Under the pieces are notes generated by a model that did not search any database, was not told where the DNA came from, and saw only the letters and a program-made list of their open reading frames with translations. Below are positions 40,117-44,879 of a stretch of 64,000 nucleotides of DNA, piece by piece. Position 1 is the first letter of the stretch; each line of letters starts with the position of its first letter. The stretch comes from Tagaea sp. Lineage in GTDB: Bacteria > Pseudomonadota > Alphaproteobacteria > CACIAM-22H2. The translations under genes and the position numbers were made by a program. The stretch lies in assembly GCA_965279525.1 (NCBI GenBank), contig CBDIIB010000005.1, positions 32,001 to 96,000 of the forward strand, in the 5' to 3' direction.

Positions 40117-41218
40117 GCCCGTCGCAAAGCTCGGCCCCGCCCCGTGGTGGCGGCCCGACCGCTTCGCCATGCGGCGCGAGAACCTCGCCAAGCGCCAGCT
40201 GGTGCTGCGCGCCACGCGCGCGTTCTTCGAGGGCGAAGGCTTCGACGAGGTCGAGACGCCCGCCCTGCAGGTGTCGCCCGGCCTGGAGCCGCACCTGATG
40301 GCGTTCCAGACCGTGCTGCGCGATCCGGGCGAGCGGCTGACGCGCCGGCTCTATCTGCACACCAGCCCCGAATTCGCGATGAAGAAGCTGCTCGCGGCGG
40401 GCATGACGAAGATCTGGCAGCTCGCGCGCTGCTATCGCAACGCCGAACGCTCGGCCACGCACCATCCCGAATTCGCGATGCTCGAATGGTACCGCGCCGA
40501 CGCGGACTACACGGCGCTGATGGACGATTGCGAAGGCCTGCTGCGCGCGGCAGCCCGCGCCGTCGGCATCGAGCGGTTCGAGCGCGGCACCAACGTGTCG
40601 AATCCGTTCGGGCCGTTCGAGCGGCTGACCGTGGCCGAGGCCTTCGCGCGCTATTGCGGGCTCGACCTGCTGGCGGCCGCACCCGATCCGGCAAAGCCGG
40701 GCGACGACGTGGCCGCCCTCGACCGGCTCGCGGCGGCCGCACGCCCGCTCAACCTGGTCCCGCATGCCGGCGACCGCTGGGACGATTTCTTCTTCCGGCT
40801 GTTCTTCGAGCATGTCGAGCCGCGACTGGGCATGGTGCGCCCGACGATCCTCCACGAATGGCCCATCACGATGGCCGCACTCGCGCGCGCCAAGCCCGGC
40901 GAGCCGCGCGTGGCCGAGCGTTTCGAGCTTTACGTGTGTGGCGTGGAGCTCGCCAACGCGTTCGGCGAGCTGACGGACGCGAGCGAGCAGCGCCGCCGCT
41001 TCGAGGCCGACCAGGCGCTGAAGGCCAAGCTCTATCGCGAGCGCTATCCGATCGACGAGGATTTCCTTGCCGCACTGGCGCACGGCCTGCCGCCATCGGC
41101 GGGCATCGCGTTGGGCTTCGACCGGCTGGTGATGCTGGCGACGGGGGCGAGCCACATCGAGGACACGATCTGGGCGCCGGTGGCGCTTGCCGGCTTCGAC
41201 GATCCGGGGGCGCGCTGA
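40109..41218 (+). CDS. epmA: EF-P lysine aminoacylase
   Basis: LHTSPEFAMKKLL, HHPEFAMLEWY, ERFELY, ELANAF, GFDRL. Confidence 0.95.
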   Translation: MSEPVAKLGPAPWWRPDRFAMRRENLAKRQLVLRATRAFFEGEGFDEVETPALQVSPGLEPHLMAFQTVLRDPGERLTRRLYLHTSPEFAMKKLLAAGMTKIWQLARCYRNAERSATHHPEFAMLEWYRADADYTALMDDCEGLLRAAARAVGIERFERGTNVSNPFGPFERLTVAEAFARYCGLDLLAAAPDPAKPGDDVAALDRLAAAARPLNLVPHAGDRWDDFFFRLFFEHVEPRLGMVRPTILHEWPITMAALARAKPGEPRVAERFELYVCGVELANAFGELTDASEQRRRFEADQALKAKLYRERYPIDEDFLAALAHGLPPSAGIALGFDRLVMLATGASHIEDTIWAPVALAGFDDPGAR

Positions 41219-42249
41219 TGGACGGCAGCCAGCGCCGCACGCTTCGCACGGCCGCCGACCTCGCGCGCGAGGGGCTGGCGGACGCTGCCGCAATCGAGGC
41301 CGTCGCCAAGCGCTACGCGATCGGCATCACGCCGCACGTGCTCGACCTCATTGACCGCGCCGATCCGGCCGATTCGGTGGCCGCCCAATACGTGCCGAGC
41401 GAAGCGGAGCTGGAAACGACGCCGGACGAACGCGCCGACCCCATCGGCGACGACGCGCACAGCCCGGTCAAGGGCATCGTCCACCGCTACAGGGACCGGG
41501 CCCTGCTGAAGCCCACGCATGCCTGTGCCGTCTATTGCCGCTTCTGCTTCCGGCGCGAGATGGTCGGCCCTGGCGGGACGGCGCTCGACGCCGATGAGCT
41601 TGCGCAGGCCGTGGCACACATCCGTGCCACGCCCGCGATCCGCGAAGTGATCCTGACCGGCGGTGATCCGCTGGTGCTGAGCGCGCGCCGCCTCGCAGCC
41701 CTGCTGGCCGAGCTTGCCGCCATCGATCATGTCGACTGGATCCGCATCCACAGCCGCATCCCCGTCGCGGATCCCGCCCGCATCACCGACGAACTTGTCG
41801 CGGCACTCAAGACGACCAAGGCCGTGTGGCTCGCGGTCCATGTCAACCACGCCAACGAGCTTTCGCCCGAAGCGATCGCGGCGTGCGCGAAGCTCGTCGA
41901 TGCCGGCATTCCGCTGATCGGCCAGACCGTGCTGCTGAAGGGTGTCAACGACGACGCCGACACGCTCGACACGCTGTTCCGCGCGCTCGTGAAGAACCGC
42001 ATCAAGCCCTACTACCTGCATCACGGCGATCTCGCCCCCGGCACATCGCATTTCCGCACGACACTCGAGCACGGCCAGGGCCTGATGCGCGAGCTGCGCG
42101 CGCGTCTTTCCGGTCTCGCACAGCCGGTCTACGTGCTCGACATTCCGGGCGGTGCCGGCAAGGTACCGGTCGGGCCGTCCTACATTTCAGATGACGGCAC
42201 GGTCGCGGATCCGAACGGCGGCAGGCATGTTTATCCGCCGTCGCAATAA
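41218..42249 (+). CDS. epmB: Lysine 2,3-aminomutase-like radical SAM enzyme
   Basis: HRY, CAVYCRFC, LTGGDPL; coupled to epmA. Confidence 0.9.
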   Translation: MDGSQRRTLRTAADLAREGLADAAAIEAVAKRYAIGITPHVLDLIDRADPADSVAAQYVPSEAELETTPDERADPIGDDAHSPVKGIVHRYRDRALLKPTHACAVYCRFCFRREMVGPGGTALDADELAQAVAHIRATPAIREVILTGGDPLVLSARRLAALLAELAAIDHVDWIRIHSRIPVADPARITDELVAALKTTKAVWLAVHVNHANELSPEAIAACAKLVDAGIPLIGQTVLLKGVNDDADTLDTLFRALVKNRIKPYYLHHGDLAPGTSHFRTTLEHGQGLMRELRARLSGLAQPVYVLDIPGGAGKVPVGPSYISDDGTVADPNGGRHVYPPSQ

Positions 42250-42334
42250 CATTTACTGAATACAATCATAGGGCGTTGACGAATCGGTAACCAAAAGTGC
42301 ATTCCCCGTTGCGTACCGAACGGGGGAACGTCCG

Positions 42335-43066
42335 ATTCATTTCGCCGGCAAACCGAGGCTCCAGGCACCCGCCGCGGCGACCGCGCGCGGCTGGTTCGAC
42401 TTCGAAGGTGCTGTCGGCAGCGGCCATTCGAATTCGCGCCAGGACGCCATCCGTCTCGAAGGCATCCTTGCCAACAGCGGCGATCTCGACCTCGTCGCGT
42501 CGGACGGGCCGACCGGCCATTGGGGCGCTGCCCTCGACCGGGCGATCCGCCGCTACCAGCACCGCCACCGCCTGCATGTCGACGGCATCCTGCGGCCGGG
42601 CGGTCAGACGCTGGCGCTGATGTACGCGACGATGGCGCGCGCACTCGACGGCCTTTCCGTGCCGACGCCCGAGGAGATCGACCGCCACCACGCGTCGATG
42701 GCGGCGGGAACGGGCCCGCGCATCGCCATCGTGCCGCAGGTCAAGCTGCTGGCGATCCAGGACCTGCCCGACGTGTCCGACGCCGACCGTGCGGCGAACG
42801 CAGCCCAGATCGACTGGATGCTGCACAACTGGACCGGCCTTGGCGGCGTTCCGTCGCATCTGGCGTTCTACGTGGTCAGCCGCGGGCGCGCGGGCGTGGC
42901 GCAGGTGCGCGATTTCATCAAGCAGTACGCCGCCGTCCGCCCGCACGCGACCGACATCCTCGTCTTCGCGATCCTGCGCGCCCTGCCTGACAACGCGGCC
43001 CGCGTGCGCTTCGTCGGCGGCGCCCCCGGCGGCTTCCGCCCGGCGGGCACGCGGCTGGTGCGGTAG
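42335..43066 (+). CDS. Peptidoglycan-binding-domain protein; probable ATT start or damaged start
   Basis: Frame open from 42272; GPTGHWGAALDRAIRRYQHRHRLHVDGILRPGGQT lies upstream of first ATG (42620); GGGGGA 7 nt before ATT. Confidence 0.65.
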   Translation: MHFAGKPRLQAPAAATARGWFDFEGAVGSGHSNSRQDAIRLEGILANSGDLDLVASDGPTGHWGAALDRAIRRYQHRHRLHVDGILRPGGQTLALMYATMARALDGLSVPTPEEIDRHHASMAAGTGPRIAIVPQVKLLAIQDLPDVSDADRAANAAQIDWMLHNWTGLGGVPSHLAFYVVSRGRAGVAQVRDFIKQYAAVRPHATDILVFAILRALPDNAARVRFVGGAPGGFRPAGTRLVR

Positions 43067-43098
43067 GCGTCTGGCGTAAATCTTCTGGGCTAATATTC

Positions 43099-43155
43099 TT
43101 GACAATCTGAAGATGTTCCGACATCGTCAGAGCCAGTCAGGCGTGCTCTTTGACA
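43099..43155 (+). promoter_or_regulatory. Sigma70-like promoter followed by boxA-like antitermination motif
   Basis: TTGACA-N17-CATCGT; TGCTCTTTGACA at 43144-43155 versus boxA TGCTCTTTAACA. Confidence 0.55.
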
Positions 43156-43230
43156 TGGTGAAAAGGCCGCACCATGCCGGGTGATCGAGACCGGATAACC
43201 GGGTGCGGCCGGTTCTGACTACAAAATCCC

Positions 43231-43435
43231 GAAAACGCGCGCGACGTCTCCGTCTCATCGATGAATTCGAGACGGATCAACGGGTTGGCGAGGAGACGGT
43301 AACGTCCCGTCTCCTCCCGTCTCGCAAATCTTGCGTCAACTGAAACGCGAAGACGTAAACGTCAACGCGTTGCGCATCAACGGGTTGGCCAGTTGACGGT
43401 CAACTTGCGTCAACGCCCGTCAACCAAACTTTGCG
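43231..43435. repeat. Two-unit tandem repeat, 100-bp period, with IHF-like core and swapped internal motif
   Basis: ATCAACGGGTTGGC at 43276 and 43376; CGTCTC copies in unit 1 correspond to CGTCAA copies in unit 2. Confidence 0.85.
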
Positions 43436-43442
43436 GAGCCCT

Positions 43443-44126
43443 TCAGCCGATATCGCCCGCCGTGTTGGTGTGCGACAGGTTGTAAATCCCCCGGATCGCA
43501 CCGGCCCTTGCACCCGCCGCGATCAGCGCGCCGTCGCCCAGCTCCACCTGCGCCAGATGTTCGAGCGCGCCCCGGTCGTAGCCGCACGCGACGAAGATCC
43601 AGTCGGCCACCGCATCGGCACCGCCCCGGATCTTCTGCTCGGTCGTGGCGGCGATCTTCGGGGTCTGCGTCTCAAGCAGGTGGCCTGCCGTCGTGCCGGC
43701 GCGCGCGGCGACGAGCTTCGCAAGGCCGCGCAGATGGTCGCGCAGTTTCGGTGCGGCACCCTCGGCGGGCGACAGCCGCACCGTCAGCGCGTGGCGTGCC
43801 AGCGCCCCACCGTGGCTTTCCAGCACGCGGCACTGGCTGCGCACCATGTTGCGGTGGTGCGGCATCATTTTCGTCGACCAGGGCGTGGGCGCGTTGAGGC
43901 GCTTGAGGTACCCGTCCGACACCAGCGTCTCGTAGGCCTCGAGCTCGTACATCACGAAGTAGCCGTCGCCGCCGTCGGCCGCCGCCCAGCGCGCCCCGCG
44001 CAGGAACCCCGGCACCGACATCCGCTCGGGGAAATGCTCGTGGCTGTGCCAGTTCTCGAATTCCGCGCGATGGGCGGGTGCGATGTCCCACCACATCGCG
44101 ACCGCACCCTTGCCGAGCAGCGCCAT
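43443..44126 (-). CDS. Hypothetical protein, EthD/DUF4286-like dimeric alpha-beta barrel
   Basis: EFENWHSHEHFPERMSVPGFLRGARW...YFVMYE. Confidence 0.7.
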   Translation of the reverse strand: MALLGKGAVAMWWDIAPAHRAEFENWHSHEHFPERMSVPGFLRGARWAAADGGDGYFVMYELEAYETLVSDGYLKRLNAPTPWSTKMMPHHRNMVRSQCRVLESHGGALARHALTVRLSPAEGAAPKLRDHLRGLAKLVAARAGTTAGHLLETQTPKIAATTEQKIRGGADAVADWIFVACGYDRGALEHLAQVELGDGALIAAGARAGAIRGIYNLSHTNTAGDIG

Positions 44127-44129
44127 CTT

Positions 44130-44879
44130 CTAGGCGGCCATCTTCACGAACGACGCGAGATCGTCGGCGAGGTCCGCCACGGCCGCGTCCCACAGCCGCT
44201 TGCCCGCCTCGATCGACGACAGGCTCGGGTTCGAGCCGATGCGCCCGTCGGGGAAGTTGCGCCGGTAGTCGTTCGCGTCGGTGAACTCGCCGCGCGGGGC
44301 GACCTCCGGGCTCATCTTCATGTGGCGCACGGCTTCCGGGTAGACCGCCCAGGTGAGCGAGACTTCCGACGGCGTGGCGTGGCTGCCTTCCTGGTCGCCA
44401 TAGAGCTCGCGGCTGATCGCCTTCACCTTCCCGCTGTCGTACCAGTTGCGCAGGCGGCAGCGCACCGCCGGCCGGTTCGACGCGCGCATCAGCGAAGCTT
44501 CCGCGTAGATCTCGGAGAACGCCGAGCTGAACGGCGCCACGTTGCCGCCATGCCCGTTGACGAAATAGAAATGCGTGAAGCCGTGGCGCGCGAGGCTTTC
44601 CACGTTGTCCTTCACGACCGCGATCAGCGTCGAGGGCCGCAGCGTCATCGAGCCCGCGAACGCCAGATGGTGCTGCGCCATGCCGACCGCGATGGTGGGG
44701 GCGACGAGCGTGCCGGTCTTCTCGCCCAGCTTCCGGCCGACCGCCTCGCCGCAGATCGCGTCGGTGCCGATCAGGCCGTTGGGGCCGTGCTGTTCGGTCG
44801 AACCGATCGGGATGATGATCGCGGTCGATTTCTTCAGGTAGGCCTCGACCTCCTGCCAGGTCTGCATGTGGAGCAGCAT
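44130..44879 (-). CDS. Creatininase family protein
   Basis: PIGSTEQHGP, GTD, NGHGGN, HA..SE. Confidence 0.92.
   Translation of the reverse strand: MLLHMQTWQEVEAYLKKSTAIIIPIGSTEQHGPNGLIGTDAICGEAVGRKLGEKTGTLVAPTIAVGMAQHHLAFAGSMTLRPSTLIAVVKDNVESLARHGFTHFYFVNGHGGNVAPFSSAFSEIYAEASLMRASNRPAVRCRLRNWYDSGKVKAISRELYGDQEGSHATPSEVSLTWAVYPEAVRHMKMSPEVAPRGEFTDANDYRRNFPDGRIGSNPSLSSIEAGKRLWDAAVADLADDLASFVKMAA

What the first reader, a model, noticed from the sequence alone, without database searches (positions are those of the whole stretch)
43231..43435. Tandem 100-bp units with a shared scaffold but a concertedly swapped internal motif (CGTCTC vs CGTCAA)
Seen: both units read AAACGCG..GACGT..[X]..ATCAACGGGTTGGC.AG[revcomp X]GT-N7-[X]C.CC[X].CAAA..TTGCG. 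From the core onward the offset is exactly 100 bp (43276/43376, 43293/43393, 43308/43408, 43318/43418, 43325/43425). In unit 1 X is CGTCTC (43245, 43251, 43308, 43318; inverted at 43269, 43293). In unit 2 X is CGTCAA(C) (43360, 43408, 43418; inverted at 43392; one more at the junction, 43334). The revcomp-X/X hairpin is kept by compensatory change. Known: ATCAA-N4-TTG matches the IHF consensus WATCAANNNNTTR except at the W position. Inference: independent point mutation after duplication would not swap all dispersed copies in both orientations, so each unit looks like a cassette with its own specificity. Short direct and inverted iterons around an IHF site recall phage/satellite replication origins or packaging sites. 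This could be an array of captured or decoy protein-binding sites, or a modular RNA with a variable recognition motif. No cognate protein is identifiable in the window.
Basis: partly seen in the sequence, partly recalled or inferred. Interest (0 to 1): 0.9.

Follow-up and report, generated by a model that had tools for sequence, protein, structure and literature searches.

The report
Repeat units behind boxA promoter cassettes
The two 100-base repeats are real and belong to about forty conserved non-coding modules that, in one group of related bacteria, mostly sit behind ribosomal-RNA-style promoters pointing at the ends of ordinary genes; their job is still unknown.

Summary
In detail: every coordinate fits. 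The pair is not unique. This genome holds 43 such units at 38 intergenic loci. Each unit has upstream half-sites, an IHF-like core, an inverted pair, and 1-5 direct half-sites 10-11 bp apart. Classes differ in the half-site: GTAAC (22 units), GTCAAC (13, window unit 2), GTCTC (6, window unit 1). At 25 of the 38 loci the unit follows a sigma-70-like promoter and a boxA matching this genome's own rRNA boxA. At 23 of those 25 loci the cassette points at the stop codon of an unrelated convergent housekeeping gene. Units and multi-copy boxA occur in the same 14 of 20 congeners and in no other genus searched. Of 18 units in relatives, 14 sit at positions orthologous to a unit in this genome. No RNA family, consensus RNA fold, phage or plasmid match, RAYT or extra ParB was found. 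My best reading, largely inferred, is a conserved non-coding transcription unit protected by Nus factors. Its 3' module would be a DNA-level protein-binding gate. It most resembles BIME-1/RIB elements, and the boxA association appears undescribed.

The parts
43099..43127 (+). Sigma-70-like promoter: -35 TTGACA (43099-43104), 17-nt spacer, weak -10-like hexamer (43122-43127)
   Evidence: scores it 9 of 12. The position matches that in at least 9 paralogous cassettes and in the orthologues of G017, G019, G013 and G011, which have better -10 hexamers. The stricter scanner did not call it.
43145..43162 (+). boxA-like element (11-mer) followed by a GTGAA motif
   Evidence: It matches this genome's own rRNA leader and 16S-23S spacer boxA. 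It differs at one position from the gammaproteobacterial consensus GYTCTTTAANA (PMC5725501, passage read). NusB/E binding was not tested.
43154..43215 (+). Leader hairpins after boxA (7-bp stem 43154-43160 with 43170-43176; longer stem 43160-43173 with 43202-43215)
   Evidence: (I3). The sequence is conserved in the orthologues of G017, G019 and G013.
43217..43226 (+). Conserved GACTACAAAA motif between the leader and the unit
   Evidence: It recurs in several paralogous cassettes and in G017. Its function is unknown.
43231..43335 (+). Unit 1, GTCTC class: two direct half-sites (43245-43256), one inverted (43269-43274), core 43276-43288, inverted half-site plus loop plus direct half-site forming a 10-bp hairpin (43290-43316), further direct half-site (43318-43323)
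   Evidence: It is absent at the orthologous locus of G019, G013 and G011.
43323..43436 (+). Unit 2, GTCAAC class: left end 43323-43340, upstream half-sites (43334, 43360), core 43376-43388, palindrome 43392-43404, direct half-sites 43408-43414 and 43418-43424, right end 43425-43436
   Evidence: Its left and right ends match the single unit of G019, G013 and G011.
43443..44126 (-). Convergent gene (227 aa, no family hit). Its stop codon (43443-43445) lies 7 nt from the end of unit 2
   Evidence: It is conserved in all 20 congeners.

Best explanation
The two units are members of two subfamilies (GTCTC class and GTCAAC class) of one modular non-coding element. The element is specific to one clade of an alphaproteobacterial genus. 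Shown: each unit is built from 5-8-bp half-sites of one predominant type. The layout is two or three upstream half-sites, an IHF-like core at a fixed distance, an inverted pair, and 1-5 direct copies one helical turn apart. At most loci the unit ends a cassette that runs from a promoter through an rRNA-type boxA and leader hairpins to the unit. That cassette is aimed head-on at the stop codon of an unrelated gene. Inferred: the cassette is transcribed. boxA recruits NusB/NusE and the other Nus factors, so the untranslated transcript resists Rho and can run antisense into the neighbouring gene. The unit is a DNA-level nucleoprotein site. IHF would bend it and an unidentified half-site-binding protein (one per class) would occupy both arms. 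It would act as a gate or roadblock for RNA polymerase coming from the cassette promoter, or for polymerase arriving from the gene. Where the unit lies upstream of a co-directional, translated gene, boxA is mostly missing, as this logic predicts. The concerted X difference reflects subfamily identity, not local mutation after a duplication.
For: Family and grammar: nhmmer found 22 hits at E<0.01. The census gave 43 units: 42 of 53 regex rows kept, plus 1 added. Within-unit half-site purity is 0.67 against 0.45 in permutations (0 of 2000 reach it). Spacing between direct half-sites is 10 bp in 51 and 11 bp in 12 of 68 cases. The core lies 2-5 bp from the inverted half-site in 43 of 43 units.

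boxA: 26 non-rRNA boxA+GTGAA sites, of which 25 are followed by clear units and 1 is atypical. 29 of 43 units have boxA within 420 nt upstream.

Promoters: 12 of 27 non-rRNA boxA sites score at least 9 of 12 against the sigma-70 hexamers, versus 8 of 3000 random genome windows.

Convergent genes: 17 of 20 tested ORFs have Pfam families on the opposite strand, all unrelated housekeeping functions.

Context: boxA loci are 23 convergent, 1 co-directional and 1 ambiguous. Loci without boxA are 7 convergent and 6 co-directional. Fisher p is 0.004, or 0.011 if the ambiguous locus counts against.

Conservation: units occur in 14 of 20 congeners, with 10-30 matches each, and in 0 of 40 genomes of other genera. 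Multi-copy boxA occurs in the same 14. 14 of 18 relatives' units are orthologous in position to a unit in this genome.

DNA rather than RNA: palindromes have a single central base. RNAalifold predicts 0 pairs. Covariation is not above shuffles. Folding shows no strand preference (16 forward versus 25 reverse more stable). Four HU/IHF-family genes are present.
Against: There is no expression data. The only runs holding this DNA are low-depth DNA-like metagenome contigs, so transcription, Nus loading and antisense read-through are all inferred. No half-site-binding protein was identified. The window's own -10 hexamer is poor, and the stricter scanner found no promoter. The IHF-like core is more conserved in its 'N4' than a plain IHF site needs (G in 36 and 33 of 43 units at two of the four positions), and my census regex fixed part of the core. 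In the GTCTC class of this genome the inverted half-site and the third half-site changed together while the middle one kept GTAAC. That pattern suits base pairing better than one protein per class. One copy (C5:1142k) ends in a canonical hairpin plus T-run, and another (C5:528k) is followed by one, so some cassette RNAs may simply terminate there. The forward strand of the direct repeats is C-rich and periodic, like a Rho loading site. That sits oddly with an antiterminated transcript. The loci are paralogues, so the Fisher test overstates independence.
Confidence: 0.45

Rival explanations
1. The units are structural intergenic repeats of the BIME/REP kind, like E. coli BIME-1/RIB. Hairpin-forming modules flank an IHF site at the 3' ends of transcription units. 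They would act as mRNA 3'-end stabilisers, terminators, or topological insulators for supercoils between convergent transcription units. The promoter and boxA would be a secondary association.
For: The units lie at gene 3' ends, often with the stop codon inside the unit's last motif. They have an IHF-like core between inverted-repeat modules. Their half-sites begin with CGTC, the tag of alphaproteobacterial REPs (PMC3733652, abstract and sections 6 and 14 read). The genome also holds classic CGTC REPs beside the cassettes. BIME-1 linkers carry IHF sites, and REPs act as terminators, stabilisers and supercoil insulators (PMC3333891, passages read).
Against: There are only about 43 copies, with stable numbers across species and orthologous positions. 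There is no RAYT gene. The half-sites are 5-8 bp and their palindromes have a 1-base centre, unlike 20-40-nt REP hairpins. The strict orientation and the coupling to boxA (25 of 26 non-rRNA boxA sites) are not explained. Seven loci lie upstream of co-directional genes.
Confidence: 0.25
2. The cassettes are genes for a family of small or structured RNAs. X and its reverse complement would pair within the RNA (alternative hairpins, a terminator), or the repeated X motifs would bind an RNA-binding protein. On this reading the concerted X change is compensatory covariation.
For: Each cassette has its own promoter and an RNA-level signal (boxA). The unit 1 hairpin has 10 bp. In the GTCTC class of this genome the inverted and third half-sites co-vary while the loop half-site does not. 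One copy ends in a canonical terminator. Leader hairpins with an A-rich loop show stems of different sequence (alignment).
Against: There is no Rfam hit at E up to 10 or 1. RNAalifold predicts 0 pairs for 20 GTAAC-class units. The named helices show no covariation beyond shuffles (226 of 500 and 62-129 of 500 shuffles reach the observed values), and changes of the third half-site are uncompensated in 5 of 20. MFE folds of paralogues differ. Folding shows no strand asymmetry. A 10-11-nt phasing and palindromes with one central base have no obvious RNA meaning. The region between boxA and the unit is not conserved between orthologues even where the flanking gene is 90-94% identical.
Confidence: 0.15
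3. The units are relics of a mobile element: a MITE with terminal inverted repeats and subterminal transposase sites, or miniature att-like sites left by integrating elements that target gene 3' ends.
For: Some GTCAAC-class units carry inverted 20-bp ends. Tandem insertions of one class next to another occur in both orders at 5 loci. Unit 1 is present here but absent in G019, G013 and G011. The class at one gene end differs between species (GTAAC class in G014 and G016). The gene order around the cassette differs in G007 and G011. The layout of an IHF site plus tandem direct sites recalls the P' arm of lambda attP (recalled, not tested).
Against: 14 of 18 relatives' units are at orthologous positions, even where the flanking genes are only about 75% identical. 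Copy number is stable at 19-30 matches in 13 of the 14 positive congeners. No target-site duplication could be defined. Both inverted ends rarely occur in one unit. There is no associated transposase. Only 2 of 10 tyrosine-recombinase genes lie within 4 kb of a cassette.
Confidence: 0.1
4. One reading: an array of captured or decoy binding sites derived from a phage, satellite or plasmid replication origin or packaging site.
For: Only the general look: short direct and inverted repeats around an IHF-like site, as in P1 parS (A- and B-boxes around a central IHF site; PMC2910045, passage read).
Against: There is no similarity to phage or plasmid records. The units sit at 38 chromosomal loci among housekeeping genes. 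There is one ParB_N gene in the genome, and its count does not follow the units across the genus. Positions are conserved between species.
Confidence: 0.03

Closest known systems
E. coli BIME-1 / RIB (RIP) elements
   Same: They are about 100-bp intergenic mosaic elements at the 3' ends of transcription units. Two inverted-repeat modules flank a conserved linker with an IHF site. They are dispersed and chromosomal (PMC3333891 passages; Boccard and Prentki 1993 seen only as a reference).
   Different: Here the arms are arrays of 5-8-bp half-sites with 10-11-bp phasing, not 20-40-nt REP hairpins. There are about 40 copies rather than hundreds. No RAYT gene is present. There are several half-site classes. 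The units are coupled to a promoter and boxA in a fixed orientation.
CGTC-tagged REPs of Alphaproteobacteria (Di Nocera et al. 2013, PMC3733652)
   Same: The half-sites start with CGTC (also TGTC). They occur in an alphaproteobacterial host, lie downstream of genes and between convergent genes, and have no dedicated transposase known.
   Different: The defining 8-9-bp stem starting with AT, the 4-5-nt loop and the CCA tail are absent from the units. A different repeat family in this same genome does have them.
rRNA-operon leader and other boxA sites (suhB leader; CRISPR arrays, recalled)
   Same: The boxA is near-identical to this genome's rRNA boxA, lies shortly downstream of a promoter, and is accompanied by hairpins. 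It stands upstream of RNA that would not be translated (PMC5725501 passages).
   Different: There is no rRNA, CRISPR array or gene downstream, only a 100-200-bp repeat module and then the antisense strand of a neighbouring gene. About 25 copies per genome is far more than any reported non-rRNA use that I found.
P1 plasmid centromere parS
   Same: Two kinds of short motifs in direct and inverted orientation lie on both sides of a central IHF site within about 90 bp (PMC2910045 passage). That specificity is changed by changing the hexamers together is recalled, not read.
   Different: There are 38 loci rather than one. There is no cognate extra ParB. The sites are not on a plasmid, and they are associated with a promoter and boxA.

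Membership tests
BIME-1 / RIB | Two REP palindromes (20-40 nt, tagged) in inverted orientation | tested here: not met
   The arms are arrays of 5-8-bp half-sites. The central palindromes are 13-17 bp with a one-base centre.
BIME-1 / RIB | Conserved linker with an IHF site between the arms | tested here: inconclusive
   The core W-TCAA-N4-(T/A)T-R-R is present in 43 of 43 units, but my regex partly imposed it, and two of the N4 positions are mostly G. Binding is not testable here.
BIME-1 / RIB | [quoted passage not shown] | tested here: met
   Composition called 26 of 38 loci convergent. After reading sequences and Pfam results I count 30 convergent, 7 co-directional and 1 ambiguous.
REP/RAYT system | A RAYT (Y1 transposase) gene in the genome | tested here: not met
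   PF01797 gave 0 matches in this 97%-complete genome, while the control genomes gave hits.
CGTC-tagged REP | CGTC tag, 8-9-bp stem beginning AT, 4-5-nt loop, CCA tail | tested here: not met
   Only the CGTC start is shared. The features were read in PMC3733652 section 6.
boxA antitermination site | Sequence match to boxA of the organism's own rRNA operon | tested here: met
   The window 11-mer at 43145 differs by one base from the rRNA leader boxA and by one base from the spacer boxA of this genome.
boxA antitermination site | Transcribed, downstream of a promoter | tested here: inconclusive
   Promoter-like hexamers occur at a fixed distance in 12 of 27 sites (score at least 9 of 12), versus 0.27% of controls. 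There is no RNA data.
boxA antitermination site | Binds NusB/NusE and confers Rho resistance | not testable with these tools
   This needs ChIP and reporter assays.
MITE | Terminal inverted repeats, target-site duplication, presence/absence at orthologous sites | tested here: not met
   Inverted ends occur in only some units. No duplication could be defined. 14 of 18 positions are conserved between species. One local gain was seen (unit 1).
Rfam RNA families | Covariance-model match | tested here: not met
   No match near any gathering score in the window region (best 17.5 bits against 95). There were 0 matches in 20 other units.
P1-type parS centromere | Cognate ParB and a plasmid or secondary-replicon context | tested here: not met
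   There is one ParB_N gene in the genome, and the count is unrelated to unit presence across 21 genomes.

The most novel reading that the evidence does not exclude
A clade-wide regulatory layer. About 25 promoters per genome would be armoured with the rRNA antitermination signal boxA and placed head-on at the 3' ends of housekeeping genes. Each would be gated by a programmable IHF-plus-half-site module that exists in at least three specificity classes. Antisense transcription into these genes would then be Rho-proof and switchable. Because the promoters resemble rRNA promoters, it might also be tied to growth rate.
Probability: 0.25. Interest if true: 0.85.

Novelty: new variant of a known kind. 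Interest (0 to 1): 0.6.

Why it matters
boxA and the Nus factors were long seen as dedicated to rRNA. Only a few other targets are known, such as suhB and CRISPR arrays. A genome with about 25 further boxA sites would widen what processive antitermination is used for. All of them sit behind promoters, in front of one family of repeat modules, and nearly all face the end of a gene. It would also give a natural system for studying antisense transcription that is protected from Rho. The modules themselves are of interest. The same scaffold carries at least three sets of half-sites, which makes them a compact case of how binding-site arrays change specificity in concert. If the modules turn out to be only structural repeats, the finding is still a well-defined new repeat family for annotating these genomes.

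Tried and rejected
RNA evidence: the look-up of sequencing runs listed four RNA runs and one run guessed to be RNA, each holding only 5-6% of the sampled words. It also listed four runs of unknown kind. I laid the latter. They are low-depth contigs of long records (up to 225 kb), so DNA-like, and say nothing about expression.

Rfam: nothing. Phage and plasmid collections: no match.

Small ORF reading: a possible short ORF through the unit seemed to share a frame in two or three copies. The frame differs in the G019 orthologue and stops occur in others, so I rejected it.

RNA folds: the first script timed out and a smaller one ran. Predicted structures of paralogues do not agree. RNAalifold and the pair counts gave no support.

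Other tests: REP/RAYT, no Y1 transposase. ParB paralogues, none that follow the units. Tyrosine recombinases, no association. Replication-related orientation switch, none seen by eye in the contig coordinates (one search list).

Literature: searching by sequence strings returned only unrelated papers. Searches on boxA, noncoding, antisense and alphaproteobacteria and on REP, BIME and IHF found no description of boxA-linked repeat cassettes. Supplements are closed and were not seen. Boccard and Prentki 1993 is not held. Naming the genus was not pursued beyond Alphaproteobacteria (best GAPDH relative 78%).

Full report
**1. The observation.** The region lies in the 376-bp intergenic stretch 43067-43442. 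On the left is a + strand ORF ending at 43066. On the right is a - strand gene of 227 aa whose stop codon is at 43443-43445. The 14-base core occurs exactly twice in the window, 100 bp apart. From the core onward the two copies align without gaps, with 46 of 63 positions identical. In the whole genome only one 100-bp stretch holds six copies of CGTCTC or its complement, and it is this one. The motifs share CGTC and differ in the next 2-3 bases.

**2. It is a family, not a singular array.** The core pattern with up to two mismatches gave 53 genome hits against 5 for the reversed control. Several hits have the same surroundings. An nhmmer model built from five copies found 22 hits at E<0.01. BLAST of four loci showed many partial copies.

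A core-anchored regular expression returned 53 rows. I dropped 9 rows that lie in coding sequence with no further half-sites and 2 that were one-base-shifted duplicates. I added one copy known. That leaves 43 units at 38 loci.

The grammar is constant. Two or three half-sites lie upstream. Then comes a core, W-TCAA-N4-(T/A)T-R-R. An inverted half-site follows 2-5 bp later, then a direct half-site that forms a palindrome with a single central base, then 1-5 further direct copies. Successive direct copies start 10 bp apart (51 cases) or 11 bp apart (12 cases) out of 68.

By the inverted half-site the units fall into classes:
- GTAAC: 22 units
- GTCAAC: 13 units, including window unit 2
- GTCTC: 6 units, including window unit 1
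- GTCGC: 1 unit
- GTCAC: 1 unit

Mixed units exist. Within-unit purity is 0.67 against 0.45 when labels are permuted (0 of 2000 permutations reach it). Because the units are related, that figure is descriptive only. In relative G007 the GTCTC class is 'pure', with a full palindrome plus 2-4 direct 10-bp repeats. In this genome and in G012 the middle half-site is GTAAC.

**3. The units are the distal part of a cassette.** Upstream of the window units lie TTGACA (43099), a weak -10-like hexamer 17 nt later, and at 43145 an 11-mer followed by GTGAA. That 11-mer is one base away from both the leader boxA and the spacer boxA of this genome's own rRNA operon. It is also one base away from the gammaproteobacterial boxA consensus (PMC5725501, passages).

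The genome holds 26 such sites outside rRNA. Of these, 25 are followed within about 60-260 nt by clear units and one by an atypical unit. A 27th site, at C5:373431, fell outside the GTGAA filter, but one search shows a unit downstream of it. Conversely, 29 of 43 units (25 of 38 loci) have boxA within 420 nt upstream.

Sigma-70-like hexamers scoring at least 9 of 12 precede 12 of the 27 sites, mostly at one fixed distance. Only 8 of 3000 random genome windows score that high. The stricter scanner did not call the window's own promoter. The orthologous promoters in four relatives are better. Several promoter classes exist, and one has a palindrome over the -10 region.

**4. Where the cassettes point.** The unit end abuts a gene end. 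Of 20 ORFs on the opposite strand, 17 have Pfam families: FliG, RF-2-like, DHDPS, MiaB-like, ALAD, TctA, SoxZ, GGT, EAL, SDR, HemN-like, a CHASE2 cyclase, dCTP deaminase, GGDEF-EAL, RNase J, DUF934 and Sel1. In several cases the stop codon lies inside the unit's last motif.

A composition-based call gave 26 convergent and 11 co-directional out of 38 loci. After reading the sequences and checking by Pfam, seven loci are truly co-directional. Their downstream genes are MreB, an alpha/beta hydrolase, TetR, a GT4 glycosyltransferase, a class I aminoacyl-tRNA synthetase, a PNP/UDP phosphorylase and an FAD-binding oxidase.

Among boxA loci, 23 are convergent, 1 is co-directional and 1 is ambiguous. 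Among loci without boxA, 7 are convergent and 6 co-directional. Fisher p is 0.004, or 0.011 with the ambiguous locus counted against. The loci are paralogues, so this is suggestive only. It fits the idea that boxA is kept where the downstream RNA would be untranslated.

**5. Distribution and age.**
- BLAST with the window units found matches in 8 of 20 congeners and in none of 20 genomes of other genera.
- A sequence-only model of the GTAAC class found 10-30 matches in each of 14 of 20 congeners. It found none in 40 genomes of 38 other genera.
- The boxA+GTGAA pattern occurs 6-26 times in the same 14 congeners, 0 times in the other 6, and 0-1 times elsewhere.
- I examined 22 units of relatives. 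One had too short a flank, and 18 of the remaining 21 had a downstream gene found in this genome. Of those 18, 14 lie within 124 bp of a unit here, with flanking-gene identity of 75-94%.

The family is therefore old and positionally stable, but the modules turn over. At the window locus, G019, G013 and G011 have only the GTCAAC-class unit. G017 has a decayed unit. G014 and G016 have a GTAAC-class cassette with another promoter class at the same gene end. G009, G002 and G018 have none. Unit 1 is thus a gain in this lineage, or a loss in the others. No target duplication could be defined.

**6. DNA or RNA?** Several results favour a DNA-level site:
- the helical phasing of the direct repeats;
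- palindromes with a one-base centre;
- a core at a fixed distance from the inverted half-site;
- no Rfam hit;
- no consensus fold for 20 GTAAC-class units;
- no covariation beyond shuffles for the two candidate helices, with uncompensated changes of the third half-site in 5 of 20;
- disagreeing MFE folds;
- no strand preference in folding energy.

Other results favour base pairing. Unit 1 has a 10-bp hairpin. In the GTCTC class here, the inverted and third half-sites changed together while the middle one did not. One copy ends in a canonical terminator. I therefore keep an RNA or hairpin reading as a rival. Four HU/IHF-family genes are present, but IHF binding is untested. Two of the core's 'N4' positions are mostly G, so the core may be more than an IHF site.

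**7. What it is not.** There is no match to phage or plasmid records. There is no RAYT, no extra ParB and no link to integrases. The classic CGTC-tagged REPs described for Alphaproteobacteria (PMC3733652) are present in this genome, but as a different repeat family. The units share only the CGTC start with them.

**8. Comparison and verdict.** In architecture the unit is closest to E. coli BIME-1/RIB: inverted modules around an IHF linker at 3' ends. It also resembles P1 parS, with two motif kinds around an IHF site. It fails defining features of both (see the membership rows). The coupling to a promoter and an rRNA-type boxA, the fixed head-on orientation and the several half-site classes were not found described in my searches. 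Supplements were not visible.

I rate it a new variant of a known kind, with real potential to be more. The mechanism I favour is a Nus-protected non-coding or antisense transcription unit with a protein-binding gate. It is inferred from sequence logic alone, and I give it 0.45.

Noticed in passing
L133 (G019) about 1280-1370; L132 (G017) same position; G000 C5:622.3k between unit and gene; G000 C2:39.5-39.6k: Classic CGTC-tagged REP pairs lie beside many cassettes. They have the CGTC tag, an 8-9-bp stem starting AT, a short loop and a CCA tail. In one case a pair is inserted between a unit and the gene end that the unit abuts in relatives.
   Followed up: partly
G000 C4:1061431-1061506 and at least 12 other places, e.g. 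C4:24.85k, C5:168.5k, C3:86.2k: A second palindromic repeat family of about 80 bp, rich in CCCTC/GAGGG runs, often sits directly next to cassettes. It matches in both orientations.
   Followed up: no
window 42272-43066 (+): This frame is open for 265 codons. It shows 42% identity over 221 aa, from 42392 on, to the N-terminal half of an M23-peptidase-like protein at G000 C5:770372-771802. It has no ATG, GTG or TTG before 42620. The start may be unusual or the gene truncated. The paralogue also neighbours a unit locus (C5:770k).
   Followed up: partly
window 40144-42249 (+): The 701-codon ORF matches the lysine-2,3-aminomutase-like family only from about residue 367 (TIGR03822, 491 bits). The real start is probably far downstream of the first start codon.
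   Followed up: no
L135 (G007), L136 (G011) versus window 42300-44300: In G007 and G011 the block 'left gene + cassette' lies between the 227-aa gene and the creatininase-family gene, not upstream of the 227-aa gene. The cassette there abuts the creatininase gene's stop codon.
   Followed up: partly
G000 C4:24.95k, C4:174.73k, C3:321.25k, C5:483.95k, C5:770.36k; relatives L185, L188, L199, L201: One promoter class of the cassettes carries an 11-13-bp palindrome (CCTAT, 1-3 bases, ATAGG) over the -10 region. It looks like an operator for an unknown regulator.
   Followed up: no
window 43217-43226; G000 C4:422.15k, C5:146.3k, C5:1053.58k, C3:425.5k: Between boxA and the unit, many cassettes share CTACAAA(A) followed by a short hairpin with an A-rich loop. 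The stem sequence differs between copies. On the opposite strand this would read as a hairpin plus a U-rich tail for the convergent gene.
   Followed up: no
window 43252-43230 (-): The only terminator-like site called in the region is on the minus strand (9-pair stem, T-rich tail). It overlaps the left edge of unit 1, so the convergent gene's transcript might run through both units before ending.
   Followed up: no
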